Notes: generated by a model from the sequence alone, not told the origin. A DNA stretch of 32,000 nucleotides from Ruminococcus albus 7 = DSM 20455 (GCF_000179635.2 NC_014824.1:1-32000), one strand, 5' to 3'. Shown: positions 18 through 31,407, counted from the first letter of the stretch. Numbers and translations are program-made.

Positions 18-33
18 AATTTTCGACTATAAT
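18..33 (+). promoter_or_regulatory. Recurrent promoter motif copy P1 (AATTTTCGACTATAAT; -10 TATAAT at 28-33)
   Basis: Matches the 17-nt motif found before every operon in the window. The helicase start codon lies 40 nt downstream of the -10 end. Confidence 0.5.
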
Positions 34-47
34 ATTTTTAGCATACT

Positions 48-65
48 TATTGATAAATGGAGGTA
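48..65 (+). promoter_or_regulatory. Conserved 5'-UTR element TATTGATAAATGGAGGTA (includes the RBS) of the helicase operon
   Basis: 17 of 18 nt are identical to 6849-6866 in the dnaE leader. It sits at the same distance from the -10 box and from the ATG. Confidence 0.4.
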
Positions 66-72
66 CATAAAA

Positions 73-2250
73 ATGATAACCGAAAAATTAATGGGAAAAT
101 ATCAAAATTACATTTATAGAGACATAGAAAGCGGCTTTACTATATTCAGACTAAGACCTCAACTGTCGGCAAATATTGCAGATAAAATGAAAGGAGGATT
201 TGTGATCTGCAAAGGTGTGTTAGCTACGATCAATACTGAGATCCCACTGGAATTATCAGGAACATGGGAATCAAATGACCATGGATGGACATTCAGTGTA
301 ATGGATTATACTGAGAAAAACTGGGATGATATGATAACCCTGGATTTTTTGAAAAGCATAAAGGGAATAAATGATATCGTAGCAAAAAAGATCATAGCAG
401 AATTTGATGATTTTTTTAATGATATCAAACTTCCGGGAGCTTCAGTCAGACTATCCATGATCTCCGGAGTAACAGCTGAAAAAAGCCAGCAGATCATAAA
501 TCAGATAAAGAATCAGTCCGAAAAAAGAGAAATAATGAAATTTCTTTTTATTCATGGAGCTAAAATGCTTCATGTGGACAGGCTTTATTCCAACTACGGA
601 CTAGAAGGTATTGAAAAAATCAAGGACGAACCATATGAAATAGGATTACAGATAGGGCTTCCCCTTAAATCCTGTGATTCTATTGCTTCTTCACAGCAAA
701 AAGATATGAAGGATCAAAAAAGGATTAAAGCATATATTGAAAATTATCTTCAAACGCAGATGATGTCCGGTAATATATTTATCAAAGAACCACAGCTCCT
801 GCCGGATGTTTTAAAAGTTTTGAATTTTGACACATTCTCAGGCAGTGACAGATTCAGAGTGCTCATGGCGTTAAAAAACTCTGATGAAGTGGTTTATGCT
901 AAAGATGATGATGGTTCAAAGATCTATCTGAAATACTTGAAGAAAGCTGAAGACAATTTAGCTGAACAAATAATACGATTGCAGAGCGCGGGATTAAAAA
1001 CCAAATACAATGAAGAATATGCCAATTACGCCGAATCTATTGCAGGATTCAAATTTGCTCCCGAGCAAAGAGGAGCTTTCAGACTTCTGCGAAAGACAGG
1101 AATCGGTATCCTCACTGGAGGACCCGGAACCGGAAAAACAACGACGGTGAAGGGGATAATCGATGCATACGAAAAAATGTATCCCGATAATAAGGTCAGA
1201 CTTTGCGCTCCGACAGGACGAGCTGCACAGAGAATGACCGAATCTACCGGACGACCTGCAACAACGATCCACAGGCTCCTTGAATACAAGCCTTTTGAAG
1301 GGAAAGAGTCTGATATAAGATGTAAAAATGAATATGATCCGATCGATGCGGATTTTATAATCGTTGATGAAGTAAGTATGCTTGACTGTCCGCTTGCTTC
1401 GCTGTTCTTCTCAGCGGTAAAATCCGGAGCATTGGTCATTATGGTAGGTGATATTCATCAGCTCCAGTCTGTAGGAGCCGGAGACGTACTGAATGATATG
1501 ATCAAAAGTAAAACCATCCCGGTAGAAAAGCTGATAAAAACATACAGACAGGCTGCGGACAGCAATATAATAAAAAACGCAAATGAGATAAACAATGGTC
1601 ATGACTGCTTAAGGCAGGACAGTGACTTTGAAATTTATCAGACTCAAAACATAACAGACAAAATCGTAGATATAATAAAGGAGTATCATAAACCAGATGA
1701 TCTTTTTTACGCCCAGATACTTTCTCCATCACATAAAAATGACGGCGGAGTTGCTGATATAAATAACAGACTTCAAAAAGAGCTAAACCCGGGGATCGTT
1801 CCGGAGTTGATCTATGGAAGAAACAGAAAATTTAAGCTCCACGATAAGATCATCATGATAAAAAATAATCCCGAAAAAGGATATTATAATGGTGATGTAG
1901 GCTATATAACCGAAATAGGAGAGGAAGAAATGACTGTAAAGATACAGGATACAGAAATAAGACTCAGTAAATCAAATCTGGATGACGTCAAACTTGCTTA
2001 CGCAATGACGATCCATAAGAGTCAGGGTTCTGAATTTCCAATAACTATCATAGCGTTGCCAAATTCGGGAATGCTTAAAAGAAATCTGCTCTATACAGCG
2101 GTAACAAGAGCGAAGAAGAAAGTAATCATAGTCCAGCAGCAAGGTTCAATTTCTATGGCTGTTAAACGTAACGAAGTAGGAAAAAGAAATACGACCTTGG
2201 TTGAAAGATTACATGATATAGTAATCGAAAGATGTATCGAATTGCAATAA
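73..2250 (+). CDS. recD2: RecD2-like SF1B ATP-dependent DNA helicase (RecD/TraA family), paralog A, 725 aa
   Basis: ATG at 73 follows GGAGG (60-64). Helicase motifs read in the translation: Walker A GGPGTGKTT, motif Ia CAPTGRAAQRM, motif II IIVDEVSM, motif III VGDIHQLQSVGAGDV, AMTIHKSQGSEF, and motif VI LLYTAVTRAKKKVII. A non-helicase N-terminal region of about 340 aa matches RecD2 architecture. Confidence 0.85.
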   Translation: MITEKLMGKYQNYIYRDIESGFTIFRLRPQLSANIADKMKGGFVICKGVLATINTEIPLELSGTWESNDHGWTFSVMDYTEKNWDDMITLDFLKSIKGINDIVAKKIIAEFDDFFNDIKLPGASVRLSMISGVTAEKSQQIINQIKNQSEKREIMKFLFIHGAKMLHVDRLYSNYGLEGIEKIKDEPYEIGLQIGLPLKSCDSIASSQQKDMKDQKRIKAYIENYLQTQMMSGNIFIKEPQLLPDVLKVLNFDTFSGSDRFRVLMALKNSDEVVYAKDDDGSKIYLKYLKKAEDNLAEQIIRLQSAGLKTKYNEEYANYAESIAGFKFAPEQRGAFRLLRKTGIGILTGGPGTGKTTTVKGIIDAYEKMYPDNKVRLCAPTGRAAQRMTESTGRPATTIHRLLEYKPFEGKESDIRCKNEYDPIDADFIIVDEVSMLDCPLASLFFSAVKSGALVIMVGDIHQLQSVGAGDVLNDMIKSKTIPVEKLIKTYRQAADSNIIKNANEINNGHDCLRQDSDFEIYQTQNITDKIVDIIKEYHKPDDLFYAQILSPSHKNDGGVADINNRLQKELNPGIVPELIYGRNRKFKLHDKIIMIKNNPEKGYYNGDVGYITEIGEEEMTVKIQDTEIRLSKSNLDDVKLAYAMTIHKSQGSEFPITIIALPNSGMLKRNLLYTAVTRAKKKVIIVQQQGSISMAVKRNEVGKRNTTLVERLHDIVIERCIELQ

Positions 2251-2267
2251 AAAGGAGAAAAATTAAA

Positions 2268-4445
2268 ATGATTATAAAAGGAAAAATAGACAAGATCTTT
2301 GCCGTAAGAGGAGATTGGGCATCTATATTAGTTTCCGGACTCCCTAAAGAAGAACTGAAAAATGCAGGATTTGCACTTTCAAAAAATCAGATAATGTTTG
2401 TAGGGAATATACCAAATCCTGTAGAAGAGTGCGAAATGGGATTCAATGGGGATTGGGTCAATCATCCTAAATACGGAATGCAGTTCAAGGTAACTGCCTC
2501 TAATCTTCTGCTGAATGACAAGAGCTCACTATTTAAGTATCTCACTTCAGGATTCGTCGAGGGCTGCGGGAAAAAAATAGCAGAAGCAATAATTGAAAAA
2601 TTCGGGGATAATGCTATTGACGTAATCAGTAATGACTTTGAAAAATTGACAGAGATACCAAAGATCGGAAAAGCAAAGGCAAAAAAGATCCATGATTCAT
2701 ATATTAATACGTGTGGTATGATGCACATAATGAATCTTTTTAAAGGTCAGATCACTCAGAAAAAATGCGTAAAGATCCACGAGACTTATGGTGATAAGGC
2801 CGAAAAGATCATTCAGGATAATCCTTATCAGCTGATATGTGATATAAGAGGATTCGGATTCAAAACAGTTGATGAATTGGCTGTTTCTTCCGGAATAGCT
2901 CTTAATGATCCAAGAAGAGTAAAAGCAGCAATAATCCACACGCTTGATACAATAAGCAATGATCAGGGGCACTGCTTCATCATGCTTGATGAGCTTGGTG
3001 ATAATATAAGAAGCCTGATAGATAACATCGACGTACCTGATAAAGTTATAATCAAGGAGATCAAAAGTCTTTACGAGGAGGAAAAGATCATTCTTGAAAA
3101 GGATGGCGACTTCGTTCGTGTCTATCTGAAAGAACTGTATGACGCTGAAAATGACCTTGCAAGAAAAATAAGCATTATGAAGAAATACAGGAACAGAGCT
3201 TACAGAGAAGATATTGTAGATGATACAATCGAATTAATTACTTCAAGAGAAACAAATCCGGATTTTGAGTTTGAGCCGCTTCAGGTCGAAGCTGTAAAAA
3301 CATCTTTAAGAAATCATTTCAGCATTATCACCGGCGGCCCCGGCACAGGAAAAACTACTATTATCAATGCAGTTGCTAAAGCAGCGATTGCAATGAAATT
3401 CGGGGTTATACTTCTGGCTCCAACAGGAAGAGCATCAAGAAAACTCGCAGAAAGTACAGGACTTGAAGCCTATACGATAGCAAAATACACTTTCAGTAAA
3501 GGTGCTATCGTTGGCGATGAGATAAATAACAAACCGAACAGGCTGTTTATAGTTGATGAAACATCGATGATAGATGTAGAAAATGCCGCAAAGCTGTTTT
3601 ACTTGATAAAGAAAACAGACACCGTTGTGCTGGTCGGAGATATCGATCAGCTTCCATCTATCGGAGCAGGAAACTTTTTCAGAGATCTTGTCAGCTCAGG
3701 GCTTGTTCCTATGGTAAAACTTACTTTTACTCACCGATTCAAAGGCTCAATTGCGGAGAATGCAAGGTCGATCAATCGAGGTTCAAGCAAATTCAAAGAA
3801 GACGATGAATTTGAGATCATCAAAGAGAAAGATCCTATCAGAAGGCAGGAATTAGTCTTAGCCAAGTATTACGAAGAACTAAAAAATGCAGGAGGTAATT
3901 ATAAAAGAGTGCAGATAATCGTTCCTATGAGACAAAGAGGAGACACCTGCACAAATACGCTTAATAAAATAATACGCGATAAAGTTAATCCACTAAGACT
4001 AAAGCAGCAAGTCTTTGGTCCCAGTCAGTTCAGAGTCGGAGACAGAGTTATGCAGACTTCAAATGATTCTGAACTTGGAGTTGCAAACGGCGATTGCGGT
4101 ATAGTATATGCCATAGACAACGATAATGCATCAATGGACGTAATGATGGATGTAGGCGGACGCAAGACCTACAATAAACTCCAGTCTACAAACCTTACCA
4201 TCGCGTATGCGATCACCGTACACAAGAGCCAGGGTTCTGAATACATGACGGTAATTTCTGCATACGGTAATGCAGACTATGTAATGCTTCAGCGTAACTT
4301 GCTCTATACTGCTGTAACAAGAGCAAAAAATAAAATGATACTGATAGCTGACCCACAGGCGTTGTACAGAGCTGTCAATAATATTGAACCCATTATTAGA
4401 AACACCTCTATAAATGAAAAGATCGCCAAATATGACAGGATATAA
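2268..4445 (+). CDS. recD2: RecD2-like SF1B ATP-dependent DNA helicase, paralog B, 725 aa
   Basis: Start refined to ATG 2268 (AAGGAG at 2252-2257); the track start at 2232 overlaps the upstream gene. Motifs: GGPGTGKTT, LAPTGRASRKL, FIVDETSM, LVGDIDQLPSIGAGNF, AITVHKSQGSEY, LLYTAVTRAKNKMILIA. An HhH-like IPKIGKAKAKKI lies in the N-terminal part. Confidence 0.85.
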   Translation: MIIKGKIDKIFAVRGDWASILVSGLPKEELKNAGFALSKNQIMFVGNIPNPVEECEMGFNGDWVNHPKYGMQFKVTASNLLLNDKSSLFKYLTSGFVEGCGKKIAEAIIEKFGDNAIDVISNDFEKLTEIPKIGKAKAKKIHDSYINTCGMMHIMNLFKGQITQKKCVKIHETYGDKAEKIIQDNPYQLICDIRGFGFKTVDELAVSSGIALNDPRRVKAAIIHTLDTISNDQGHCFIMLDELGDNIRSLIDNIDVPDKVIIKEIKSLYEEEKIILEKDGDFVRVYLKELYDAENDLARKISIMKKYRNRAYREDIVDDTIELITSRETNPDFEFEPLQVEAVKTSLRNHFSIITGGPGTGKTTIINAVAKAAIAMKFGVILLAPTGRASRKLAESTGLEAYTIAKYTFSKGAIVGDEINNKPNRLFIVDETSMIDVENAAKLFYLIKKTDTVVLVGDIDQLPSIGAGNFFRDLVSSGLVPMVKLTFTHRFKGSIAENARSINRGSSKFKEDDEFEIIKEKDPIRRQELVLAKYYEELKNAGGNYKRVQIIVPMRQRGDTCTNTLNKIIRDKVNPLRLKQQVFGPSQFRVGDRVMQTSNDSELGVANGDCGIVYAIDNDNASMDVMMDVGGRKTYNKLQSTNLTIAYAITVHKSQGSEYMTVISAYGNADYVMLQRNLLYTAVTRAKNKMILIADPQALYRAVNNIEPIIRNTSINEKIAKYDRI

Positions 4446-4467
4446 TTTGCAGAAATCAGTTATCATT

Positions 4468-4498
4468 AAAAGAGACCACTTCGGTCTCTTTTTTTTGT
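4468..4498 (+). terminator. Rho-independent terminator after the helicase operon
   Basis: Stem AAAGAGACC / GGTCTCTTT with a 5-nt loop, followed by a T-run (4489-4496). Confidence 0.8.
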
Positions 4499-4503
4499 TT
4501 TTT

Positions 4504-4520
4504 AAATTTTCTGATATAAT
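4504..4520 (+). promoter_or_regulatory. Recurrent promoter motif copy P2 (AAATTTTCTGATATAAT)
   Basis: Extended -10 TGATATAAT with the conserved upstream TTTTC. It lies 20 nt upstream of ATG 4540. Confidence 0.55.
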
Positions 4521-4539
4521 TATAACAGGAGGGGATAGT

Positions 4540-5868
4540 ATGCTTTTTTTTAATCCACTTAGAAGAAGGGAACTTGAGGATTATAAGGATAAAATATTCA
4601 ACCGCACAAAAATCGAACTCAAAAAAGGTTCAAAATACACTGCAGATAAAGCTGAAAAAATATCTGATAGCTTCATAAAATTCAATGTATCAAGAAGAAC
4701 CAAGAAAGGACTGTCTATTGCTTCTGTCTCGGTCGCAGTATTTTTGCTTTCTGTATATATTCCATCATGGATCACAGGTACAGAAAAAGAAGAGTATTAC
4801 TCTTTGCCTATAGACCCTAAAGCCATTGAATTTAATGAAAAAGCTGCCGTAAATTATCCTGATGAAGATTTCGACGGAGATGGAATAACTAATTCTTATG
4901 AAATTTTATCAAAAACGGATATATTCAGTGACGATACAGATGGTGACGGCTTTGGCGATAAAGTTGAACTTGCACTTAATACAGATCCGGTAAAAGCTGA
5001 TCCGCTTATAAAAGCGGTTAAAAAGAAGGATAAAGCTGAGGGTAAAACTATAAGTGATCCGTATAAAGACGACGGAGTGATATTATGGGCGGATAGTTAT
5101 GAGGATAAGGCAAATGGCTATGTCATCAAAGATAAGAACGGATATTATATCAGAAATTTTAAAGGATGGGCTCAGTTCCCAGAGACCTTGCACAAATACG
5201 TGTATAACTACAATACAAAAGCACAAAAACTCGAAAAGATGAAATACAGAAAAGTTGAAGATGCTTATTACATTAATAAAGACAGTTATATCGTTATTCT
5301 GGATAATAAGCCGAAATACAAGTATACATTTTCTGCATTCGGTACAAATTACAAATTAAAAAACGCTTTCTTTGGGAATACACTTGCTTTTGTTTTGCCG
5401 GCAAAGGGGAAGACGTACTTGAAATGCCAAAAAACACCTTTGTTCAGTGATTCTGAGAGCAAAAATATTATTACAGATGTTAAGGTCTTAAAATACACAA
5501 ATGATTTTAAGGACAGAATGACCAAAAACACAAACACAGCAGCTGACCTTTCTTCTGTATTGAAATTTATAGAAAGTAACAAGTGCGTATACGTCTCTTT
5601 GTTTGACCCTGAAGAAGGAGAAAGTGTAGGCATCGTGTATGGTTATACTCCCGAAGGAGATCTGCTTGTAGCCGACCCCGAGACAGGAGATTATTCGGGT
5701 AAGATAAAAATCAAACTTAAGGCAAGAAAAATTGTGGATGAAAATAATGAAATAGGAAAACTTATTTATTTTGATTTTACCGGACTTGGCTTTGATTCAG
5801 AAAAGGGTTCCAGGATTAATTTCTTTGGTACGGAAACATCAGATGACTATGTAGATTATTTTTCATGA
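4540..5868 (+). CDS. Membrane-anchored protein with two thrombospondin-type-3-like Ca-binding repeats, 442 aa
   Basis: Start refined to ATG 4540 (GGAGGGG at 4528-4534). The track extension from 4414 runs through the terminator and the promoter. One TM segment (SIASVSVAVFLLSVYIPSWI). Repeats DEDFDGDGITNSYE and DDTDGDGFGDKVE fit the DxDxDGxxDxxE pattern. The C-terminal 300 aa or so were not recognised. Confidence 0.6.
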   Translation: MLFFNPLRRRELEDYKDKIFNRTKIELKKGSKYTADKAEKISDSFIKFNVSRRTKKGLSIASVSVAVFLLSVYIPSWITGTEKEEYYSLPIDPKAIEFNEKAAVNYPDEDFDGDGITNSYEILSKTDIFSDDTDGDGFGDKVELALNTDPVKADPLIKAVKKKDKAEGKTISDPYKDDGVILWADSYEDKANGYVIKDKNGYYIRNFKGWAQFPETLHKYVYNYNTKAQKLEKMKYRKVEDAYYINKDSYIVILDNKPKYKYTFSAFGTNYKLKNAFFGNTLAFVLPAKGKTYLKCQKTPLFSDSESKNIITDVKVLKYTNDFKDRMTKNTNTAADLSSVLKFIESNKCVYVSLFDPEEGESVGIVYGYTPEGDLLVADPETGDYSGKIKIKLKARKIVDENNEIGKLIYFDFTGLGFDSEKGSRINFFGTETSDDYVDYFS

Positions 5869-5875: not shown

Positions 5876-5910
5876 GAAGGATCGTTTTCATAAAATGATC
5901 CTTCTTTTTA
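5876..5910 (+). terminator. Rho-independent terminator
   Basis: Stem GAAGGATC(GTTTT) / (AAAAT)GATCCTTC followed by TTTTTA. Confidence 0.7.
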
Positions 5911-5917
5911 TTTCATT

Positions 5918-5934
5918 AAATTTCCTCGTATAAT
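5918..5934 (+). promoter_or_regulatory. Recurrent promoter motif copy P3 (AAATTTCCTCGTATAAT)
   Basis: Motif match. The -10 end is 40 nt from ATG 5974. Confidence 0.5.
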
Positions 5935-6773: not shown

Positions 6774-6810
6774 AAAGACATTTTCTTCATTTGAAAATGT
6801 CTTTTTTGTT
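6774..6810 (+). terminator. Rho-independent terminator
   Basis: A 12-bp stem AAAGACATTTTC / GAAAATGTCTTT with a 7-nt loop, followed by TTTGTT. Confidence 0.8.
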
Positions 6811-6815
6811 GTAGT

Positions 6816-6832
6816 CAGTTTTCACCTATAAT
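6816..6832 (+). promoter_or_regulatory. Recurrent promoter motif copy P4 (CAGTTTTCACCTATAAT)
   Basis: Motif match. The -10 end is 40 nt from ATG 6872. Confidence 0.5.
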
Positions 6833-10930: not shown

Positions 10931-10968
10931 AGCGAGGCTAAAAAAATTAGCTTCGCTATTTTTTTTAT
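10931..10968 (+). terminator. Rho-independent terminator after dnaE
   Basis: Stem AGCGAGGCTAA / TTAGCTTCGCT (one G-U pair) with an A5 loop, followed by a T-run. An A-tract lies upstream. Confidence 0.75.
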
Positions 10969-10973
10969 TTAGA

Positions 10974-10990
10974 CAATTTTCTGCTATAAT
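10974..10990 (+). promoter_or_regulatory. Recurrent promoter motif copy P5 (CAATTTTCTGCTATAAT)
   Basis: Extended -10 TGCTATAAT. It is identical over 16 nt to P7 and P8, and lies 41 nt upstream of ATG 11031. Confidence 0.6.
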
Positions 10991-13277: not shown

Positions 13278-14786
13278 GTGTCGGCATATAATGATCTGCT
13301 TAATAAGTACAATACTCTGGTAGCTAGATGCCAGTCCCTGCAGGAAACACTGATAAGTAAGGAACAGCAGTGGAATATAGAAGCGGAAGAACATAAAATC
13401 GTAGAAGATAATATAAAAAAATTATGCATACTAATTCTGGCAAAAGATAAATCGCAGATAAATCTCGGTTCAAACAGTGGCTCATGGAACGCTTGTCAGA
13501 TAAGAGATCTGATCATCCAATCAATCGACAGCTATAAAAAATACAACCGGGAAAGATCATTAACTCTACAACAGTTGCTGGATCTTGCGGAAGAAAAACA
13601 ACATACTATCGATGGATTAATAGACGAACTGGAATTCTATAAAAACAACAGCGGGAAAAACGTTGACTACGCAGAAGAAAAGGAATCGAAGGCAAAGGAA
13701 AAAGCTCTCGAAGAGGCGATTGAAGGGCTTGATTTTGAGGAGAAGCAGAAGATAAAAAACAATAACGCTAATATTCAGCTCATCGACAATGAATCCGGAG
13801 TGAGTGACCTTATTCTTGATGCGATGGAAGAACTGGATACATTTATGCCAACCGAAAAATCTGTTCCGATCAAAGATTCCAACGGAAAGATCGCTTTGGC
13901 AAGAGAAAAAAAGCGTCAAAATAACGTTGTAAAAAAATTTGCATCCGAAATGGATGTCGGGAGAGTTCTGAATGATCTGTCTCCTGTTCAAAAAGACATC
14001 ATCACTATAATAGGCGAAAAGGGTTTATCCGAAAATATGGAAATAATCCAGGAGTTGTACAAGGATGAAAAAAACAAGACAAAAACAAAAGATAGCTTAA
14101 GTTCTATGATATACACAGCAGAAAGGGAATTACAGGCAACCGGTGTTATAATTTCGGAAAATACAGCTATTCCTCTTGTAGGAAAAGCAAATGTCAAGAT
14201 AATAAGAATGACAGAACTTGGAAACCGACTGTATTCTATGATGCATAACAAAAAGCCTGTTATTTCCGAAGCAAACAGACTTCAGGCAGAACATGATAAT
14301 ATCCATCATGGGTATGGTATTAAAGCTATCTCGCAAAGTATGCAAAGCTGTGATCTTTACTCGCATGTAAGCATGGATTGCCGAAGAGATCCGTTTATAG
14401 TTGATAAAAACAAAAATAGAAATGTAACATACATTCCTGATATAATTGCTGTTTACAAAAATGGTGACGAAAAATGCTACTTTGAGTATGAAAGATGTAG
14501 TCGTCCCGATGATGTAATTGCTGAAAAATGCAATAAAATGTGTCATTTTACACGAAACATGTATTTTCTGACCAACAATAGTAACCACGCTAATAATTTA
14601 GCTAAACAGCTTACAAAATGGAAAAAAGAAGCTGCTAAAAGAAAAATTAAAGCCAAGATCTTTTTATCTACAGTAAAAAGTTTTCAAGCTAATAATTTTG
14701 ACATAAAGGAAAAATGGCAGTTTTATTGGGGTGACAATGACATTGAACCAATAACGGAAACGAAAGTAGATATGCCCGATAATTAA
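13278..14786 (+). CDS. Coiled-coil protein with a wHTH-like middle and a PD-(D/E)xK-like C-terminal motif (replication-relaxation-like?), 502 aa
   Basis: GTG start directly abuts the upstream TAA, and there is no in-frame ATG for about 180 codons. The C-terminus NIHHGYGIK...YIPDIIAVYKNGDEKCYFEYERCS...EKCNKM fits the restriction-endonuclease-fold pattern H...PD...ExE/K. The functional call is tentative. Confidence 0.45.
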   Translation: MSAYNDLLNKYNTLVARCQSLQETLISKEQQWNIEAEEHKIVEDNIKKLCILILAKDKSQINLGSNSGSWNACQIRDLIIQSIDSYKKYNRERSLTLQQLLDLAEEKQHTIDGLIDELEFYKNNSGKNVDYAEEKESKAKEKALEEAIEGLDFEEKQKIKNNNANIQLIDNESGVSDLILDAMEELDTFMPTEKSVPIKDSNGKIALAREKKRQNNVVKKFASEMDVGRVLNDLSPVQKDIITIIGEKGLSENMEIIQELYKDEKNKTKTKDSLSSMIYTAERELQATGVIISENTAIPLVGKANVKIIRMTELGNRLYSMMHNKKPVISEANRLQAEHDNIHHGYGIKAISQSMQSCDLYSHVSMDCRRDPFIVDKNKNRNVTYIPDIIAVYKNGDEKCYFEYERCSRPDDVIAEKCNKMCHFTRNMYFLTNNSNHANNLAKQLTKWKKEAAKRKIKAKIFLSTVKSFQANNFDIKEKWQFYWGDNDIEPITETKVDMPDN

Positions 14787-14798
14787 TTTTGTCAGATG

Positions 14799-14815
14799 CA
14801 ATTTTCTCATATAAT
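14799..14815 (+). promoter_or_regulatory. Recurrent promoter motif copy P6 (CAATTTTCTCATATAAT)
   Basis: Motif match 26 nt upstream of ATG 14841. No terminator lies upstream, so read-through from the P5 operon is possible. Confidence 0.5.
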
Positions 14816-20033: not shown

Positions 20034-20079
20034 AAATATCCCGACTAAAGTTCGTCGGGATATTTCTATTTATTTTTTT
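20034..20079 (+). terminator. Rho-independent terminator after the giant ATPase gene
   Basis: A 12-bp stem AAATATCCCGAC / GTCGGGATATTT with an 8-nt loop, followed by a T-rich tail (TTTATTTTTTT). Confidence 0.85.
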
Positions 20080-20088
20080 CAAAATAAA

Positions 20089-20105
20089 AAATTTTCTGCT
20101 ATAAT
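20089..20105 (+). promoter_or_regulatory. Recurrent promoter motif copy P7 (AAATTTTCTGCTATAAT), Tad assembly operon
   Basis: Perfect consensus copy with extended -10 TGCTATAAT, 32 nt upstream of ATG 20137. Confidence 0.6.
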
Positions 20106-25557: not shown

Positions 25558-25574
25558 AAAATTTTTTATTTTCA

Positions 25575-25591
25575 AAATTTTCTGCTATAAT
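25575..25591 (+). promoter_or_regulatory. Recurrent promoter motif copy P8 (AAATTTTCTGCTATAAT), pilin operon
   Basis: Perfect consensus copy 49 nt upstream of the flp ATG. No hairpin terminator lies between tadC and this site. Confidence 0.6.
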
Positions 25592-25639
25592 AAATAGGGA
25601 AACCTTTATAACATATAATTTTCAAAAGGAGAGATTATA

Positions 25640-25900: not shown

Positions 25901-25904
25901 TAAT

Positions 25905-26417
25905 ATGTATATCCTCAGGACTGTAATAGCCGCCGTCATATGTTTGGCGGCGGCTATATTCGATTATAAAACTACAAAGATACCAAATAAATTCATTTTC
26001 CCCGTTATTATATTGAGTTTTATTTTTTCTCTTATTTGCTACCCTTTGATAAATACCGGATTTTCGGTTTTATTTGTCGTACTTCTGTTCTTTTTTGGAA
26101 TGACAGGATGGATGGGTTTGGGAGATATAAAGCTGTTAATGGCTTTGTCTTTAATAGGAACATGGAAGATGGGGTTATTTACATTTGCGCTTTCATCAAT
26201 TTATCTGATGATCTTCGGTTTCTTGGTTTCTCCATATGAAACAGGATTCTATGCAAAAAAAATGCTGAATAGATTCAAATTAAAAAAAGAACCATTATAT
26301 AAAAAATCGACCAAATACAAATTTGCGCCGTTTATAATGCTTGGAGCATTGTCATACTCGATAATTTTTGATCCGGCGGGACCGATTCATTTCGAGGTGT
26401 TCGGAGGATTTTTATGA
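25905..26417 (+). CDS. tadV: Prepilin peptidase, A24 family, TadV/CpaA type (no methyltransferase domain), 170 aa
   Basis: Polytopic membrane protein with the two catalytic Asp contexts FDYKTTKIPN and GLGDIKLLMAL. Confidence 0.8.
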   Translation: MYILRTVIAAVICLAAAIFDYKTTKIPNKFIFPVIILSFIFSLICYPLINTGFSVLFVVLLFFFGMTGWMGLGDIKLLMALSLIGTWKMGLFTFALSSIYLMIFGFLVSPYETGFYAKKMLNRFKLKKEPLYKKSTKYKFAPFIMLGALSYSIIFDPAGPIHFEVFGGFL

Positions 26418-26920
26418 AATTAAAGATAATCAAAAGATTTTTTCGTTCAGGTAACGGAGAACTCCTGGGATTCGTTATTTGTATGCCATTATTCGTCTGG
26501 CTGCTTATGCTGTTAGTTTCGATAGCACAGTTATCTATCACCAAAGAACAGATCACGTATCTGGCATATGCTGCCGGCAGAGCTGCAGTTGTCTCCGAAA
26601 ATGCAAATGACGCGCTTAATAACGCCCAGGCAGTTGTGGATGAGTCATCAAATCTTTCAGGATTCAGCAACGTAAACGTTGATATCCTGTTTAATGGCGA
26701 ACCTATAACGGAAAGCAATATAAATTCGATCTCATGGCAAAAAGGGGAGTATATAGTAGTTAGGCTAACGTATACAACAGATTCCCTTATCAGCGGTGCT
26801 ATTCCTTTCTCTGATGAAGAGATCGATATGAATGGAACAAGAGAAATGCTTATGGTTATGATGATCGAACGCCCTGTTCCTAATGACCCGTATACAAGCG
26901 AATGGACTAATTTATCGTAA
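26414..26920 (+). CDS. tadE: TadE-like pseudopilin, 168 aa
   Basis: ATGA start/stop overlap with tadV, GGAGGA RBS. The N-terminus RSGNGELLGFVICMPLFVWLLMLLV fits the TadE/TadG N-terminal motif. Confidence 0.6.
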   Translation: MKLKIIKRFFRSGNGELLGFVICMPLFVWLLMLLVSIAQLSITKEQITYLAYAAGRAAVVSENANDALNNAQAVVDESSNLSGFSNVNVDILFNGEPITESNINSISWQKGEYIVVRLTYTTDSLISGAIPFSDEEIDMNGTREMLMVMMIERPVPNDPYTSEWTNLS

Positions 26921-26933
26921 CGGAGGTCTTTTT

Positions 26934-28307
26934 ATGAAACTATCTTTCTTTAAAAAAGGTAATGGAGCTTCTATGATAGGAATGGTCATTATTTTTGGAA
27001 CATTTGTTTTTATCATGATCCTTATTGATCATTTTAATCGATTCAATGCTGTAATAGAAACACAGACAAAAACAGATGCTATTGCTGACGCTATGGCTGT
27101 TGCAGCTAATGATGGGAGCGGTGTGCCGAATTTATACAGAATTTCTAAAGTCAGACACCAAATGACTCAGAAATATATAACTGCGGATTATAAATCCGGA
27201 GAACACGGTATAATGACACCTATCGTGACTCCCGGTCTTACAAGTCCTTTTACAAAAATAAAATCCATAAAATTCAATGAAGAATGGGCTCTTGGAAAAG
27301 AGATAGATCCGCTGAACGAAACTGATAAATACCTTGAAAGTCTGGGAGTAAAAAGCAACGATAAAATACTGTATGTTACAGCGGAAGGCGAAACTCCTTT
27401 TATAAATGCTGATTATCATAAAACTGACAGTGAGGATACTTCGTGGGATTACATATATACCCATGCAACGAATGTCACCAGGATGCTTACATCCAATGAT
27501 GCCCTTATGCAGCAAAAGTTTCCGCTTGACGCATATATAAGAGCAAGACCTACGTACATGAACGGCGATGAAAACAAAGATACTTATTGCGAAAATCCAA
27601 CATTTCCATTGCCGACGTCGGATTATCTCAGAGACGTTACTCAGTTTGAAGTAGAACTTTCTAACAGATACAAGGCAAGCCAGAATATATCGGGTGATCC
27701 GCCGTATACCAGAGAAGCGATTTTTATGTGGGATGTAACATGCGCACTCGGATGTGAGATACCGTGCTACTACAATAAATTCACAGGAGAGCCCTGGCAG
27801 GCTGTATCTGAGGGAAATGAACAGAATTATGACGGAGTTATCCTTTCAAATGGAGCTACTTCTGCTGATATGAGTAAAGTTTACGATCAGCCGGAAGGTT
27901 ACTACACGTTTGTAAAAAACTACTTCTTCCATATTCACAGTGCTGTTTTCCCTACAGACGAAGAATATATAGGCTGTGACAAGTACAATAACTGGCGCTT
28001 AACAGCAAGAGACGGTTCTGATGCGGATACATGTAGAAGGATCCAGATTCAGGCTAATCTCGGATATCCAACAATAATGGTATTCACAAACGGTCAAAAC
28101 TGGGTCGTTCTTCCCGAGGCAAGCACCGTTGATGATGATGTGGATTATGAAGTATCTGATGGAAGCAGAGGCGTTTATATTTCAGCAGCTTCAAATGCTA
28201 CCGAAGAAGAAGCTGCTGCAACGAATGTCTTAAAAAAGAATGTAAATGCTGGATACAGAGTACCTAACGGAAATTATCTTGCTATCACATACAAACCGTT
28301 ACAGTAA
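26934..28307 (+). CDS. TadG-like pilus-associated protein with a large Cys-containing extracellular domain, 457 aa
   Basis: Start refined to ATG 26934 (GGAGG at 26922-26926). The N-terminus KKGNGASMIGMVIIFGTFVFIMILID...TDAIADAMAVAA resembles the TadG-like N-terminal domain. The rest was not recognised. Confidence 0.5.
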   Translation: MKLSFFKKGNGASMIGMVIIFGTFVFIMILIDHFNRFNAVIETQTKTDAIADAMAVAANDGSGVPNLYRISKVRHQMTQKYITADYKSGEHGIMTPIVTPGLTSPFTKIKSIKFNEEWALGKEIDPLNETDKYLESLGVKSNDKILYVTAEGETPFINADYHKTDSEDTSWDYIYTHATNVTRMLTSNDALMQQKFPLDAYIRARPTYMNGDENKDTYCENPTFPLPTSDYLRDVTQFEVELSNRYKASQNISGDPPYTREAIFMWDVTCALGCEIPCYYNKFTGEPWQAVSEGNEQNYDGVILSNGATSADMSKVYDQPEGYYTFVKNYFFHIHSAVFPTDEEYIGCDKYNNWRLTARDGSDADTCRRIQIQANLGYPTIMVFTNGQNWVVLPEASTVDDDVDYEVSDGSRGVYISAASNATEEEAAATNVLKKNVNAGYRVPNGNYLAITYKPLQ

Positions 28308-28323
28308 GGAGTTGAAAATTAAG

Positions 28324-30117
28324 ATGATAAAGAAGTTCTCGGCTTCGGTACTTGCACTGATAATCATGTTTCAGTGTTCCGCATCAATTTCCGCCGCGCC
28401 CAAGACTTACCAAAAAGGAGCGAGTCTTACTTTTACGTGGGCGGGATCTGGAGCTCATGGAGGACAGGATTATCACATGGAAGCTGTAGACAATAGCGGT
28501 AATCCGACTATTATCTGTTCCAATAACGATGGAATAGTGAACTACTTCAGCGGCACAAAAAAGTATATAGACTGGAAAAATCTCGGATACGGGATAGACG
28601 ATGATTTTGTTTGTCATCCTCGCACTCCCGATTACGCAAATGAAGATTTTCTGAATGGTTTGGGCAATTTCGGCTATTTCCCGGAGTTTTCTAATTACAG
28701 AGTACCTATAAATGAAGTAAGGAACTCTATGAACGAAATGTACGCTACTTTTGGTGATTACGGTACTGAAATATGCACCGGAATGCCTGATTATGATGCT
28801 TATTATCTTAACGGACAGGCAATGAATATTAATAATCAGGATTTCATGGCTAATCAGTCAAACGGATTTAATCATTCACAACAAGAATGGACAGGCTCAA
28901 AAGCGCGTTTCATGATCGGTGAAAAAGCCTACAATTCTTTAGCAGAAATGTATCTCGATGCCAACGATGAACAGAGAAGAAAGATAGAAGAACTGATAGA
29001 AAAAGGTCTTACTGAATCGGATGTTGCACCTGAAAAAGTGGAAGCTGTGTTGAATTGGCTCAGGACGATAGCAGAACTGGATGCGGAGGGAAGAATTCGT
29101 TATTTTACTCCTGTAAATGCGACATACTTCACTGAAGCCCCTGACGGCCTATCAGGAGAGGAGATACAGCAGAGATTTATTGACTGGTGTAATGCTCATG
29201 CTTACGATTATGAAGCTCTTGGCTGGAATCTTGACGATAGTGCTACATGGCCAATTGGCATTGATATCGACGGCACGATGGTGCTTAATGTCGGTAATAT
29301 AGAGTTTTTCAATAATTCTGTAATTAATCTTACTCCATTTGATTATTTGAGGATATCTGACCGAATAGCGTGGTTTGAAAGTTTGATGGATGTTTTTGAG
29401 ACCGCCGGAGCAGAAACCGTAGATGTCACAAGAGTTTTGGACAGAAAAATAACGACCTTATGGATAGGTACTTCCTCATACGATAAGCTCTATAATATGT
29501 ATACATGGACAATAGAGAAGGCAGATGATGAAGGAGACGGTAAATACACCTTCCAGCCGTATGCGGGAACAATAGGTGCAAACGGTGATGTTGTGGGAGC
29601 AAACGGACAGTCATTTTCCTTCAGGCCCACATCAGAAGGTCATTACAGGATAACCTGTTACAGGAACTACAAGCCTACCATCTGTAATAAAGTCGCCGTT
29701 AATTTCTGTGAATACACGGTTTTATCCGATATAGGCGCTATCGTATTTTTTGATCATGACGGCTTTATGGCAGGAAATGTACAGAGAAATAACTATGATG
29801 GAGAAATCGACAGCGACAAGATAGTGAGTACATCAACTAAGAAGAATCCCGGAGTTGAAACAGTAGATGGAATAAGAAGGAATATAGACTACCAGGAAGA
29901 CTATACAGAAGGTGAGCTCAGAGCTCATGGTGATGTTAATCCTGATTGTGGAATGTTTCCTTCAGACGCAAATTCAAATCAGGCGTATTATCTGAGTCAA
30001 TACTCCTGCGTCTGGAATTTTTATATTTCCGATGCGGAAGTAGGAAAGACTATTTTCGATTTTGAAGACCCGGATAACGGCCTGAGAAAAGATTTTGACA
30101 CTGAAAGACTTGGATAA
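28324..30117 (+). CDS. Secreted protein of unknown function (candidate pilus-associated adhesin), 597 aa
   Basis: Start refined to ATG 28324 (AAGGAG at 28306-28311). Signal peptide MIKKFSASVLALIIMFQCSASISA/AP. Last gene of the pilin operon. No recognisable motif. Confidence 0.55.
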   Translation: MIKKFSASVLALIIMFQCSASISAAPKTYQKGASLTFTWAGSGAHGGQDYHMEAVDNSGNPTIICSNNDGIVNYFSGTKKYIDWKNLGYGIDDDFVCHPRTPDYANEDFLNGLGNFGYFPEFSNYRVPINEVRNSMNEMYATFGDYGTEICTGMPDYDAYYLNGQAMNINNQDFMANQSNGFNHSQQEWTGSKARFMIGEKAYNSLAEMYLDANDEQRRKIEELIEKGLTESDVAPEKVEAVLNWLRTIAELDAEGRIRYFTPVNATYFTEAPDGLSGEEIQQRFIDWCNAHAYDYEALGWNLDDSATWPIGIDIDGTMVLNVGNIEFFNNSVINLTPFDYLRISDRIAWFESLMDVFETAGAETVDVTRVLDRKITTLWIGTSSYDKLYNMYTWTIEKADDEGDGKYTFQPYAGTIGANGDVVGANGQSFSFRPTSEGHYRITCYRNYKPTICNKVAVNFCEYTVLSDIGAIVFFDHDGFMAGNVQRNNYDGEIDSDKIVSTSTKKNPGVETVDGIRRNIDYQEDYTEGELRAHGDVNPDCGMFPSDANSNQAYYLSQYSCVWNFYISDAEVGKTIFDFEDPDNGLRKDFDTERLG

Positions 30118-30180: not shown

Positions 30181-30185
30181 ATTTT

Positions 30186-31091
30186 TTACGGTACATAAGG
30201 TATGTCTGAATATGAGAACGATTTAGCTATAGCCTTCATATCATCGAGATAATGGCTTTCATACTCAGAGCCTTTTTTTACATGTGCTATCATTTCTGTT
30301 CCGTTCGCCATCTGGAATAATGTGATGATCGTATCTACGTCTTCAATGTTACAATAATAATCATATGTGTAAATTACATAATCATCCGTCTTTTCATATT
30401 TAGCATTCTCTGTATTAACGCCTTCGTTATTGTTTTTGGTTCCCAAACGAAGCTGATTCGAATAAAAAATGTTCGAACTTCTTTCTGATTTTGATCGAGC
30501 AAATTCTTCAGTAAAATAATCCAGGTTATCATATCCGTTTGACTGCATCTCATAAGGAAGAAAAGAGATGGAACAATCGGCTATAACAGCCTGATCCTTT
30601 AATTTATCAGGACTAAACAGCATCGGTACTTCATTAAAATTAAGAGTCATATTATAATTTTCCGGGACATCAAATTTTATGCTTACACCTTCCCATGTAA
30701 ATGGTCCCTCGTAAAAATCGTAGTGGTTAACAGATTTCGGATCGCCATTTTTAGGAAACACCTGATTTGTTTCAAACGGACGGTATGATGTCGTTACTTT
30801 GGTGGTCGTTGTCGTTTCGGCCTTTGCTCCGATTTTTATTGTTCCATTTTCATGCTTTTTTGTATACTTATCCGGTATCTCTACAGGAGCAGTCGTAACA
30901 GGCTTTTCTTCCATTGTTTCTGAAGATATTATATCATCTTTCTCTTCTTCCGGAACACTCTCTTCTTTATTTGATACGGTTACAACCGCTTCATTTACTT
31001 TTTCATCATCATTCATACTGCTATCACTGCAAGACGCTAAAATTGTAGTGAGCATAACTGAGATTATAGCTGCAGAAATTATCTTTTTCAT
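30186..31091 (-). CDS. Lipoprotein with an acidic/Thr-rich linker, 301 aa
   Basis: Start refined to the second ATG (31091). The upstream ATGAGGAG supplies the GAGGAG RBS. Signal peptide MKKIISAAIISVMLTTILASC with lipobox L-A-S-C. It is the only minus-strand gene supported in the window. Confidence 0.7.
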   Translation of the reverse strand: MKKIISAAIISVMLTTILASCSDSSMNDDEKVNEAVVTVSNKEESVPEEEKDDIISSETMEEKPVTTAPVEIPDKYTKKHENGTIKIGAKAETTTTTKVTTSYRPFETNQVFPKNGDPKSVNHYDFYEGPFTWEGVSIKFDVPENYNMTLNFNEVPMLFSPDKLKDQAVIADCSISFLPYEMQSNGYDNLDYFTEEFARSKSERSSNIFYSNQLRLGTKNNNEGVNTENAKYEKTDDYVIYTYDYYCNIEDVDTIITLFQMANGTEMIAHVKKGSEYESHYLDDMKAIAKSFSYSDIPYVP

Positions 31092-31180
31092 TTTTTGTAT
31101 TCTCCTCATTAAAATTTCTATTATTATTTATTTTAACACGTTAACTCCATTATGTCAATGTATTTCCGATTCTTATTTAT

Positions 31181-31197
31181 ATTATAGCAGATTATTT
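31181..31197 (-). promoter_or_regulatory. Degenerate copy of the promoter motif on the minus strand (AAATAATCTGCTATAAT)
   Basis: The reverse complement of 31181-31197 carries the extended -10 TGCTATAAT. It lies about 90 nt upstream of the minus-strand lipoprotein start. Confidence 0.45.
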
Positions 31198-31390
31198 CAA
31201 ATTTTAAAAATTTCGTATAGTGCAATTTCCACTACAAAAATAATTTTGTTTTGACGCTCAACAAAAAGAACAAATGTTTACAGTGAAATCCGTACAAACG
31301 GACAGTTAATATGTTATAATGTGAAAAAGCAAAAATCAAGCACTTAGCGTAATTAAAATAAATACTTTTATCTTTTGTTTTTATCTGTTT

Positions 31391-31407
31391 CAGTTTTCTT
31401 CTATAAT
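31391..31407 (+). promoter_or_regulatory. Recurrent promoter motif copy P9 (CAGTTTTCTTCTATAAT)
   Basis: Motif match. The -10 end is 40 nt from ATG 31447. Confidence 0.5.

What the first reader, a model, noticed from the sequence alone, without database searches (positions are those of the whole stretch)
18..31407. A 17-nt motif (consensus aAATTTTCtgcTATAAT) precedes every operon: nine + strand copies and one degenerate - strand copy
**What the sequence shows:**
- Copies lie at 18-33, 4504-4520, 5918-5934, 6816-6832, 10974-10990, 14799-14815, 20089-20105, 25575-25591 and 31391-31407. A degenerate copy lies on the minus strand at 31181-31197.
- Three copies (P5, P7, P8) are identical over 16 nt.
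- The invariant parts are TATAAT and a TTT(T/C)C block placed exactly 3 nt upstream of it. Five copies also contain the TG of an extended -10.
- I could not find a convincing TTGACA-like -35 at 17 bp in any copy.
- Five copies sit 5-20 nt downstream of a strong intrinsic terminator, which gives a terminator-promoter cassette architecture.

**Inference:** conservation beyond a generic -10 suggests one of three things. It could be an element-specific transcription programme (its own sigma, activator or RNAP modifier, as for phage middle or late promoters). It could be -35-independent extended -10/-16-region promoters tuned for one host. Or it could be recent recombination-driven homogenisation.
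Basis: seen in the sequence. Interest (0 to 1): 0.65.

Follow-up and report, generated by a model that had tools for sequence, protein, structure and literature searches.

The report
Private promoters of a mobile element
The repeated motif is real: it is the core of a 30-bp promoter carried by every core operon of a low-GC mobile element in Ruminococcus albus, and it is most likely read by a sigma factor that the element encodes just upstream of the window, not by the host's housekeeping sigma.

Summary
**Observation:** confirmed. TTTYC-N3-TATAAT gives 10 matches against 0.22 expected. The nine + strand copies sit at the stated coordinates.

**Full signal:** the motif belongs to a longer three-block signal, TTTTT(A/G)T at -36..-30, AATTTTC at -22..-16 and TATAAT at -12..-7. 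In most copies the T-block is also the tail of the preceding terminator. The "degenerate" minus-strand copy is a full member.

**Specificity:** a model trained only on two related elements finds exactly these 10 sites in the window (scores 18-31, next best 8.3). It finds none above 9.4 in 93 kb of control Ruminococcus DNA.

**Sigma factor:** 4.4 kb upstream of the window the element encodes a 330-aa sigma-70-family protein with regions 2, 3 and 4. In all five related elements its own operon has an ordinary host-type promoter (TTGnAn-17-TGnTATAAT).

**Co-variation:** in the most distant relative (sigma 30% identical), 8 of 9 operon promoters read GATAAT. That sigma differs at the residues aligned with the -12 readers of sigma-70.

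**Best explanation (about 0.7):** host SigA transcribes the element's sigma gene, and that sigma then drives all core operons. The closest analogue is SigN of plasmid pBS32. No transcript data were available.

The parts
4..33 (+). Promoter P1 (-36 to -7): T-tract, AATTTTC, GAC, TATAAT. It serves the two tandem RecD2-like helicase genes (73-2250, 2268-4445).
   Evidence: cross-trained model score 23.6. Orthologous sites in L148 and L140 keep the blocks while N3 is GAC/GTT/GCC. The preceding hairpin lies just outside the window.
4491..4520 (+). Promoter P2, for the 442-aa TSP3-repeat protein gene (4540-5868). Its T-tract is the tail of the terminator at 4468-4492.
   Evidence: score 27.9. Conserved in L148 and L140.
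5905..5934 (+). Promoter P3 (TTTCC variant), for the DnaG zinc-ribbon primase-like gene (5974-6768). It follows the terminator at 5876-5904.
   Evidence: score 20.5. The L148 orthologue keeps TTTCC but has N3 TGC instead of TCG.
6803..6832 (+). Promoter P4, for the DnaE-type DNA polymerase III alpha gene (6872-10915). It follows the terminator at 6774-6804.
   Evidence: score 19.3. The L148 orthologue has N3 GTT instead of ACC.
10961..10990 (+). Promoter P5, for the operon 11031-14786 (163 aa, SSB-like 277 aa, 277 aa, 502 aa). It follows the terminator at 10931-10957.
   Evidence: score 28.7.
14786..14815 (+). Promoter P6, for the operon 14841-20015 (59 aa, 172 aa, 1481-aa serine-rich protein). 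There is no hairpin upstream, but the T-block is still present (ATTTT).
   Evidence: score 23.3.
20076..20105 (+). Promoter P7, for the Tad-type pilus operon 20137-25557 (253 aa, CpaE-like ATPase, CpaF/TadA ATPase, TadB, TadC). It follows the terminator at 20034-20065.
   Evidence: score 25.3.
25562..25591 (+). Promoter P8, for the operon 25640-30117 (86 aa, prepilin peptidase, 168, 457 and 597 aa). There is no hairpin, and the T-block is present.
   Evidence: score 30.9, the best in the window.
31378..31407 (+). Promoter P9, for the operon that starts at 31447 and runs past the window end.
   Evidence: score 18.4. Two further promoters of this class lie downstream of the window in L017.
31181..31210 (-). 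Tenth promoter of the class, on the minus strand (TTTTT-N9-AATAATC-TGC-TATAAT). It lies upstream of the lipoprotein gene 30186-31091 (-).
   Evidence: Score 27.7 with the model trained on other elements. The TAATC variant is also used in L161.
31130..31158 (-). Ordinary host-type promoter TTGACA-17-TG-TAAAAT for the same lipoprotein gene. It serves as the in-window contrast to the element-type promoters.
   Evidence: Top hit of the consensus scan, 11 of 12 matches with TG.
4468..4492 (+). Intrinsic terminator hairpin. Its T-tail is the -36..-32 block of P2. The same arrangement occurs at 5876-5904, 6774-6804, 10931-10957 and 20034-20065.
   Evidence: In the four elements, 22 of the 30 sites listed directly follow a hairpin (RNAfold energy of -7 kcal/mol or lower).

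Best explanation
**What it is.** The motif is the core of a private promoter class of a low-GC (about 37%) mobile element that lies on a Ruminococcus albus replicon. The full signal is TTTT(A/G)T (-35..-30), a 17-bp spacer whose downstream half is AATTTTC (-22..-16, with C-16 invariant), and TATAAT (-12..-7). An A about 7 nt further on is the likely start site.

**How it most likely works.**
1. Host SigA transcribes a small operon from an ordinary TTGnAn-17-TGnTATAAT promoter. The operon lies 4.4-5.9 kb upstream of the window, on the opposite strand, and encodes a conserved 89-aa protein and a 330-aa sigma-70-family protein.
2. This element-encoded sigma then directs host core RNA polymerase to the T-tract/TC/TATAAT promoters in front of every core operon: helicases, primase, DnaE, SSB, serine-rich protein and Tad pilus.
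3. Region 2 would read the -10 hexamer. Region 3.0 would plausibly read T-17/C-16. The divergent, lysine-rich region 4.2 would read the T-rich -35 block.
4. Each operon ends in an intrinsic terminator whose T-tail doubles as the -35 block of the next promoter. This gives insulated terminator-promoter cassettes under one master regulator.

**Shown:** the motif, its three blocks, its restriction to the element, its conservation, the sigma gene and its fold, the two promoter classes, and the T/G change at -12 together with the sigma change.

**Inferred:** that this sigma is the factor that reads these promoters, which domain reads which block, and the start sites.
For: 1. **Real signal, extended motif.** 10 matches against 0.22 expected. 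The position table of 29 sites from four loci shows unselected conservation of T at -36..-32, AA at -22/-21 and TTTT at -20..-17.
2. **Cross-validation.** A 34-nt model trained only on L140 and L161 recovers exactly the 10 window sites (scores 18.4-30.9, next best 8.3). It finds nothing above 9.4 in 93 kb of control DNA, and nothing at the threshold of 8 in the host-like-GC end of L017.
3. **Element-specific.**
   - The class stops where GC rises from about 0.36 to about 0.46, some 5 kb past the window.
   - TATAAT preceded by TC occurs 42 times out of 202 in element loci and 2 times out of 103 in control DNA (Fisher p = 1.4e-6).
   - The R. albus KH2T6 rRNA promoter is TTGACA-17-TGTGATATAAT. 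Control Ruminococcus promoters are TTGACA-17-TGnTATAAT.
4. **Sigma gene.**
   - L012:1892-2884(-) hits Pfam Sigma70_r2 with 30.6 bits (cut-off 24).
   - It hits TIGR02937 with 48.9 bits (cut-off 42.9).
   - It aligns to SigA and FliA over regions 2 to 4.1.
   - The AlphaFold model (pLDDT 74.5) aligns over its full length to sigma A, sigma S and sigma B chains.
   - It also matches the phage sigma family phrog_351.
5. **Two promoter classes.** In all five elements the sigma operon has TTGCAA, TTGAAA, TTGAAT, TTGCAG or TTGATT, then 17 bp, then TGnTATAAT, with no C at -16. The two other minus-strand genes also have TTGAC-type -35 boxes.
6. **Conservation.** Synteny and promoter class hold in relatives whose sigma is 83%, 70%, 32% and 30% identical. 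Orthologous sites keep the blocks while N3 changes.
7. **Co-variation.** In L163, 8 of 9 operon promoters have GATAAT, while the SigA-type promoter of the sigma operon in the same element keeps TATAAT. Its sigma, P0128, reads SQLFYKLTD where P0001 reads SQIKAAILD. These are the columns aligned with R436, Q437 and T440 of E. coli sigma-70. That these residues read -12 is established knowledge, recalled from memory.
8. **Precedent.** SigN of pBS32 is a plasmid sigma expressed from SigA promoters. Its regulon is confined to the plasmid, and its -10 region contains GATATAAT (PMC6751061).
Against: - There are no transcript or biochemical data, so start sites and sigma dependence are inferred.
- TATAAT is also the optimum for the host's SigA, so some SigA activity at these sites cannot be excluded.
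- The host control is indirect. It consists of about 70 kb of rumen Ruminococcus sp. metagenome contigs reached through an IS3 homologue, one true R. albus rRNA promoter, and 4 kb of host-like flank. I could not sample the R. albus chromosome itself.
- The -12/sigma co-variation rests on one lineage, and the host of that lineage is unknown.
- The sigma lacks the W433/W434 pair of sigma-70 (it has S/Q), so its melting mechanism is unclear.
- No promoter of the element class lies upstream of the sigma operon, so there is no sign of positive feedback.
- The sigma could in principle serve a further gene set that I did not see.
Confidence: 0.7

Rival explanations
1. These are -35-independent promoters read by the host's housekeeping SigA. 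A perfect TATAAT plus the T-rich upstream blocks (acting like a -16 region or an UP element) would be enough. The element's sigma would then do something else.
For: - TATAAT is the exact SigA consensus in all 10 window sites.
- TGn is present in 5 of the 10.
- T at -17 and -15 resembles the Gram-positive TRTG region.
- Extended -10 promoters without a -35 box are well known in Firmicutes (established knowledge).
Against: - G at -14 occurs in only 9 of 29 sites, and -16 is C, not a purine (C-16 was forced by the site-selection pattern there, and the unforced check is).
- No site has TTG at -35..-33.
- True R. albus and control Ruminococcus promoters, and the sigma operon's own promoter in every element, carry TTGnnn -35 boxes. 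So two discrete classes coexist rather than a continuum.
- L163 uses GATAAT at 8 of 9 sites while its SigA-type promoter keeps TATAAT. G at -12 is strongly disfavoured by primary sigmas (established knowledge).
- The class is absent from 93 kb of control DNA.
Confidence: 0.17
2. Host SigA reads the TATAAT, but only with help from an element-encoded DNA-binding activator or sigma appropriator. This helper would recognise AATTTTC and/or the T-tract, as in phage middle or late promoters that lack a -35 box.
For: - There is a fixed-distance block at -22..-16 and no canonical -35.
- Many conserved genes of unknown function sit next to the sigma gene, including the 89-aa partner.
- T4 MotA/AsiA and phi29 p4 are precedents (established knowledge).
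Against: - The blocks are not palindromic or repeated, as dimeric activator sites usually are.
- The change to GATAAT in L163 affects the part read by sigma, not by an activator.
- A complete sigma with regions 2, 3 and 4 is encoded and conserved next to these operons, which makes a separate activator unnecessary.
Confidence: 0.08
3. The copies are a dispersed repeat kept alike by recent recombination or gene conversion, with no sequence-specific function beyond a generic -10.
For: Three copies are identical over 17 nt. The repeat finder groups six copies into one 38-nt family.
Against: - Identity is confined to the three blocks. The 9-nt segment between the T-tract and AA, N3, and the flanks all differ between copies.
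- Orthologous sites in elements with 70-83% sigma identity changed N3 but kept the blocks.
- The same architecture exists in elements with 30-32% sigma identity and unrelated flanks.
Confidence: 0.02

Closest known systems
SigN (ZpdN) of Bacillus subtilis plasmid pBS32 and its plasmid-confined regulon (PMC6751061)
   Same: - The sigma factor is encoded on a mobile element.
- Its gene is expressed from SigA-type promoters.
- Its regulon is essentially restricted to the element.
- Its -10 region contains (G)ATATAAT with a specific upstream extension, and its -35 is not TTGACA.
   Different: - No detectable sequence relationship. tblastn of P0001 against the plasmid collection gave only FliA/RpoD-type hits at 20-35% identity and no Bacillus record.
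- The consensus differs: TTTACGTTT...CCAGATATAAT there, TTTT(A/G)T-N9-AATTTTC-N3-TATAAT here.
- No LexA box or autoregulatory promoter was seen here.
- The promoter here is fused to the preceding terminator.
Phage-encoded sigma factors with private promoters (SPO1 gp28 and gp33/34, T4 gp55; PHROG family phrog_351)
   Same: A sigma encoded by a mobile genome redirects host core RNA polymerase to element-specific promoters in a temporal cascade that starts from host-type promoters. P0001, P0127 and P0128 match phrog_351 (E = 4e-15 to 5e-20).
   Different: - No phage structural genes were recognised in the 60 kb examined.
- No close relative of the sigmas tried (P0001-P0003, P0125, P0127) or of DnaE was found in the phage or IMG/VR collections.
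- The element carries a Tad-type pilus and plasmid-like replication genes.
- The promoter sequences differ from the SPO1 and T4 consensus sequences as I recall them.
FliA/sigma-28 (group 3) sigma factors and their TAAA-N15-GCCGATAA promoters
   Same: - The best named NCBIfam hit is FliA_WhiG (53 bits).
- Region 2.3-2.4 (FHTFAVSQIKAAILDEL) aligns closely with my recalled E. coli FliA sequence FTTYAVQRIRGAMLDEL.
- The GATAAT variant in L163 resembles the GATAA core of the sigma-28 -10 element.
   Different: - The score is far below the family cut-off (189.6 bits).
- There are no flagellar genes.
- The -35 block is a T-tract, not TAAA.
- There is no GCC extension.
- The protein is about 90 residues longer, with a conserved C-terminal extension.
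Extended -10 (TGnTATAAT) and Gram-positive -16 region (TRTG) promoters of the housekeeping sigma
   Same: There is no need for a TTGACA box, a perfect TATAAT, conserved bases just upstream of the hexamer, and T at -17 and often at -15.
   Different: - G at -14 is not conserved (9 of 29).
- -16 is C in every operon-upstream site examined, not a purine.
- Further blocks are conserved at -22..-18 and -36..-30.
- One lineage has G at -12.

Membership tests
sigma-70 family sigma factor (the 330-aa protein P0001, encoded upstream of the window) | Region 2 (core binding and -10 recognition) detectable by curated models | tested here: met
   Pfam Sigma70_r2: 30.6 bits against cut-off 24. TIGR02937: 48.9 bits against cut-off 42.9. 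phmmer to SigA chains in the PDB: E = 1e-8 over residues 28-237.
sigma-70 family sigma factor (the 330-aa protein P0001, encoded upstream of the window) | Domain order sigma2 - sigma3 - linker - sigma4 | tested here: met
   The AlphaFold model from a 13-sequence alignment has mean pLDDT 74.5. Foldseek aligns about 290-330 columns to sigma A, sigma S and sigma B chains, with E down to 1e-7. Inter-domain geometry is not reliable (TM about 0.3).
sigma-70 family sigma factor (the 330-aa protein P0001, encoded upstream of the window) | Binds core RNA polymerase and directs promoter-specific initiation | not testable with these tools
   Needs in vitro transcription or genetics.
FliA/WhiG (sigma-28) subfamily | Score above the subfamily cut-off, and flagellar or developmental gene context | tested here: not met
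   TIGR02479: 53.4 bits against cut-off 189.6. The context is replication and pilus genes.
Canonical housekeeping (SigA) promoter | TTGACA-like hexamer 16-18 bp upstream of TATAAT | tested here: not met
   At -35..-30 the 29 sites read TTTT(A/G)T, and G at -33 occurs once. Of the ten sites, the consensus scan lists only P7 (hexamers TTTTCA/TTCAAA) and the minus-strand copy (TTTAAA), neither with a TTG. The sigma operon and the control promoters do meet the criterion.
Extended -10 promoter (TGn) | TG at -15/-14 | tested here: not met
   T at -15 in 19 of 29 sites, G at -14 in 9 of 29. In the window, 5 of 10 sites.
Gram-positive -16 region (TRTG) | Purine at -16 | tested here: not met
   C at -16 in all 10 window sites, in all 12 L161 operon promoters and in 9 of 9 in L163.
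SigN/pBS32-type system | Sigma gene on the element, expressed from host-type promoter(s), with a regulon confined to the element | tested here: met
   By sequence only: sigma operon promoters; the class is confined to the low-GC island within the DNA sampled.
SigN/pBS32-type system | Homology to SigN and the SigN promoter consensus (TTTACGTTT / GATATAAT) | tested here: not met
   No Bacillus plasmid hit for P0001 at E below 1e-3. The consensus differs.

The most novel reading that the evidence does not exclude
A family of large rumen Ruminococcus mobile elements (contigs of 75-208 kb carry these sigma genes) runs an orthogonal transcription system. One element-encoded sigma reads an unusual three-block promoter whose -35 block is physically the U-tract of the preceding intrinsic terminator. 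Every operon is therefore a self-contained terminator-promoter cassette. Lineages have switched specificity at -12 (T to G) through changes in region 2.4, which gives natural orthogonal sigma/promoter pairs.
Probability: 0.35. Interest if true: 0.6.

Novelty: new member of a known kind. Interest (0 to 1): 0.5.

Why it matters
- If the assignment holds, this is a previously undescribed sigma/promoter pair that controls the replication and pilus genes of a mobile element in a major rumen fibre degrader.
- It gives a simple handle for finding the element and its relatives: a 34-nt model separates true sites from background by more than 10 bits.
- It predicts a single master switch for the element's activity.
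- It offers compact, insulated terminator-promoter cassettes, and a natural T/G specificity variant, that could serve as orthogonal expression parts in Clostridia.
- For annotation, it shows that a perfect TATAAT is not by itself evidence of housekeeping transcription.

Tried and rejected
**Dead ends**
- Megablast of the window against the phage and plasmid collections found nothing. R. albus plasmids are not in the PLSDB copy.
- I spent the single genome-contig scan on an R. albus 16S primer (sequence recalled from memory) to reach the host chromosome. It returned only rRNA-only contigs, though one of them supplied a genuine R. albus rRNA promoter.
- I tried to reach the R. albus chromosome through the IS3 transposase at the contig end. 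This gave rumen Ruminococcus sp. metagenome contigs instead, which I used as a proxy control.
- Sigma-based searches of IMG/VR with A1, P0125 and P0127, and with DnaE, found nothing. Alignment A2 was too diverse to search with.
- The metagenome hit L149 turned out, judging by ORF sizes and order only, to look like a chromosomal FliA in a flagellar operon. It is not a family member.
- The first structure prediction, from 3 sequences, was unusable (pLDDT 46.6).
- Rfam and tRNA scans of the window and its flanks found nothing.
- Literature searches for the assembly accession, and for R. albus plasmids together with sigma, found nothing relevant.

**Considered and rejected**
- Operator of a dimeric repressor: the blocks have no symmetry.
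- Homogenised repeat: rejected on the comparative data.
- The 301-aa lipoprotein and the 311-aa upstream protein as paralogues: no similarity.

Full report
**1. Observation.** The pattern TTTYC-N3-TATAAT occurs 10 times in the window, against 0.22 expected from dinucleotide shuffles.
Each lies 25-54 nt upstream of a start codon preceded by a ribosome-binding site.
- Seven of the eight co-directional intergenic gaps longer than 50 nt carry a copy. So do the region before the first gene and the divergent region at 31.1-31.4 kb.
- The consensus scan finds strong terminator hairpins directly upstream of P2, P3, P4, P5 and P7. P1 also follows one, just outside the window.
- The tenth strict match (2271-2284, minus strand) is intragenic and lacks the rest of the signal. 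I treat it as chance.

**2. The motif is part of a longer, three-block signal.** I aligned 29 operon-upstream sites from the window, its upstream flank and two related elements. Only C-16 and TATAAT were forced by the selection. The unforced positions show:
- T at -36..-32 in 26, 28, 28, 24 and 22 of 29 sites;
- A at -22 and -21 in 24 and 25 of 29;
- T at -20..-17;
- G at -14 in only 9 of 29.

So there is no TTGACA, but a T-rich hexamer, TTTT(A/G)T, sits exactly 17 bp upstream of TATAAT.
- The repeat finder independently reports a 38-nt family covering this span.
- In 22 of the 30 sites the T-block is the tail of a terminator hairpin. It is also present in 6 of the 7 genuine sites that have no hairpin.
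- The "degenerate" minus-strand copy has the complete architecture: TTTTT-N9-AATAATC-TGC-TATAAT.

**3. Origin and surroundings.**
- *Source.* The window is part of contig JHYT01000017.1 (88.7 kb) of assembly GCA_000621285.1. The proteins are labelled Ruminococcus albus, and the same sigma gene occurs on a 420,706-bp contig. I recall that figure as the size of R. albus 7 plasmid pRUMAL01.
- *Genes.* Two tandem RecD2-like helicases, a DnaG-type zinc-ribbon protein, DnaE, an SSB-like protein, a 1481-aa serine-rich protein, a Tad-type pilus locus and many unknowns.
- *Extent.* The low-GC region (about 37%) runs from an IS3 copy at the contig end to about 5 kb past the window end. There GC rises to about 46% and ordinary accessory genes begin: SfsA, a cupin, TetR and an ECF sigma.

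**4. A sigma factor is encoded by the element.** The gene lies 4.4 kb upstream of the window, on the opposite strand, and encodes a 330-aa protein.
- It passes the Pfam Sigma70_r2 and TIGR02937 cut-offs.
- It aligns to SigA and FliA from region 2 to region 4.1.
- With a 13-sequence alignment it folds (mean pLDDT 74.5) into sigma2-sigma3-linker-sigma4 plus a C-terminal extension.
- Foldseek aligns the model over its full length to sigma A, sigma S and sigma B chains.
- An exhaustive HMMER search finds only about ten full-length relatives at the 50% cluster level before generic sigmas begin.
- It is co-transcribed with a conserved 89-aa protein of unknown function.

**5. Two promoter classes.** The sigma operon has a canonical promoter in every element examined: TTGCAA, TTGAAA, TTGAAT, TTGCAG or TTGATT, then 17 bp, then TGnTATAAT, with no C at -16. 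The other two minus-strand genes also have TTGAC-type -35 boxes. All + strand core operons have the T-tract/TC/TATAAT type. I found no intermediates.

**6. The class is not the host consensus.**
- A true R. albus rRNA promoter reads TTGACA-17-TGTGATATAAT.
- About 70 kb of rumen Ruminococcus sp. contigs carrying gyrase, PFOR and ATPase genes show TTGACA-17-TGnTATAAT promoters. They hold no strict motif apart from one intragenic match.
- TATAAT preceded by TC occurs 42 times out of 202 in element DNA and 2 times out of 103 in control DNA (p = 1.4e-6).
- A 34-nt model trained only on the related elements L140 and L161 recovers exactly the ten window sites (18.4-30.9 bits, next best 8.3).
- The same model finds nothing above 9.4 bits in 93 kb of control DNA, and nothing at the threshold of 8 in the host-like end of L017.
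- *Caveat:* I could not sample the R. albus chromosome itself.

**7. Comparative evidence.** Four syntenic relatives were recovered: L148 (sigma 83% identical), L140 (70%), L161 (32%, on a 180-kb contig) and L163 (30%, on a 77-kb contig).
- Orthologous promoters keep the blocks while N3 changes: GAC/GTT/GCC at P1, TCG/TGC at P3 and ACC/GTT at P4. This excludes simple homogenisation and shows that TG is not the selected feature.
- In L161, 11 of 12 operon promoters have TC at -17/-16, mostly as TTATC.
- In L163, all nine operon promoters keep the T-tract and TC, but eight read GATAAT. The SigA-type promoter of the sigma operon in the same element keeps TATAAT.
- The L163 sigma differs from the others at the columns aligned with R436, Q437 and T440 of E. 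coli sigma-70: SQLFYKLTD against SQIKAAILD. These residues are known, from my own knowledge, to read position -12. A change in the base read by sigma, matched by a change in the element's sigma and not seen in the element's SigA-type promoter, is what the own-sigma model predicts. The host-SigA model does not predict it.

**8. Mechanism proposed.**
- Host SigA transcribes the 89-aa/sigma operon.
- The new holoenzyme then transcribes all core operons from the three-block promoters.
- The geometry fits a sigma-70-family holoenzyme: a -35 block at 17 bp, a block at -22..-16 within reach of region 3.0, and a -10 hexamer.
- Terminators that share their T-tail with the next -35 block insulate each operon.
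- Assigning blocks to domains is inference.

I put this model at about 0.7. The rivals are host SigA alone at about 0.17, SigA plus an element-encoded activator at about 0.08, and a non-functional repeat at about 0.02.

**9. Comparison with known systems.**
- The nearest functional analogue is SigN of pBS32. It is a plasmid-encoded sigma expressed from SigA promoters, its regulon is confined to the plasmid, and its -10 contains GATATAAT (PMC6751061). There is no detectable homology and the consensus differs.
- Phage sigma cascades are similar in logic, and the proteins match phrog_351. However, no phage structural genes or close phage relatives were found.
- The protein is FliA-like in region 2 but fails the FliA family cut-off.
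- The promoters fail the defining features of canonical, extended -10 and TRTG promoters.

**10. Verdict.** The finding is a new member of a known kind, an element-encoded sigma with a private promoter. It has an unusual promoter layout and a natural specificity variant, and it still needs transcript mapping and biochemistry.

Noticed in passing
L012:1892-3181 (minus strand; 4.1-5.4 kb upstream of window position 1): An operon encoding a conserved 89-aa protein and the 330-aa sigma-70-family protein. The small protein is conserved in all relatives examined (31% identity in L161) and has no family match. It may be an anti-sigma or a co-factor.
   Followed up: partly
L017:1-4100 versus 4101-10904 (about 5 kb past the window end): GC jumps from about 0.36 to about 0.46, and the element-type promoters stop. 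Beyond the jump lie SfsA, cupin, TetR and a 566-aa ECF-type sigma gene. This looks like the right-hand boundary of a low-GC island of roughly 43 kb.
   Followed up: partly
L012:5395-7250 (upstream of window position 1): A 311-aa gene with cysteine-rich motifs is flanked by 390-nt and 520-nt non-coding stretches that are GC-richer than their surroundings. This segment is absent from the close relative L148. L140 has an Fe-hydrogenase gene inserted at the same spot, so it may be an insertion hotspot or an unrecognised mobile unit or RNA. Rfam found nothing.
   Followed up: partly
L012:71-1644: An IS3-family transposase pair lies at the very end of the NCBI contig. It is probably the reason the assembly breaks there. 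Close homologues are abundant in rumen metagenomes.
   Followed up: partly
window 73-2250 and 2268-4445: Two tandem RecD2/YrrC-like helicase genes, both 725 aa, conserved as a pair in all relatives.
   Followed up: no
window 15570-20015: The 1481-aa protein matches NCBIfam 'serine-rich protein' NF033849 at 1616 bits. The gene sits in the only GC-richer stretch of the window (about 0.44 at 16-19 kb).
   Followed up: no
window 20137-30117: A Tad/Flp-type pilus locus in a Gram-positive mobile element: CpaE-like ATPase with a zinc ribbon, CpaF/TadA ATPase, TadB, TadC, prepilin peptidase and an 86-aa candidate pilin. It is split into two element-type transcription units.
   Followed up: no
window 31130-31210 (minus strand): The lipoprotein gene 30186-31091 has tandem promoters: an element-type one (TATAAT at 31186-31181) and, 23 bp downstream of it, a host-type TTGACA-17-TG-TAAAAT.
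   Followed up: partly
window 5140-5163 (minus strand): An antisense near-match (AAATTTC-TGA-TATAAT) lies inside the TSP3-repeat gene and is conserved in L148. It lacks the T-tract. It is either an internal antisense promoter or chance.
   Followed up: no
L140, L161 and L163 (far side of the sigma gene): The relatives carry NrdD (anaerobic ribonucleotide reductase), ThyX, a second SSB and DUF6465 genes, all under the same promoter class. The contigs reach 180 kb. The gene content recalls large phages, but no structural genes were seen.
   Followed up: partly
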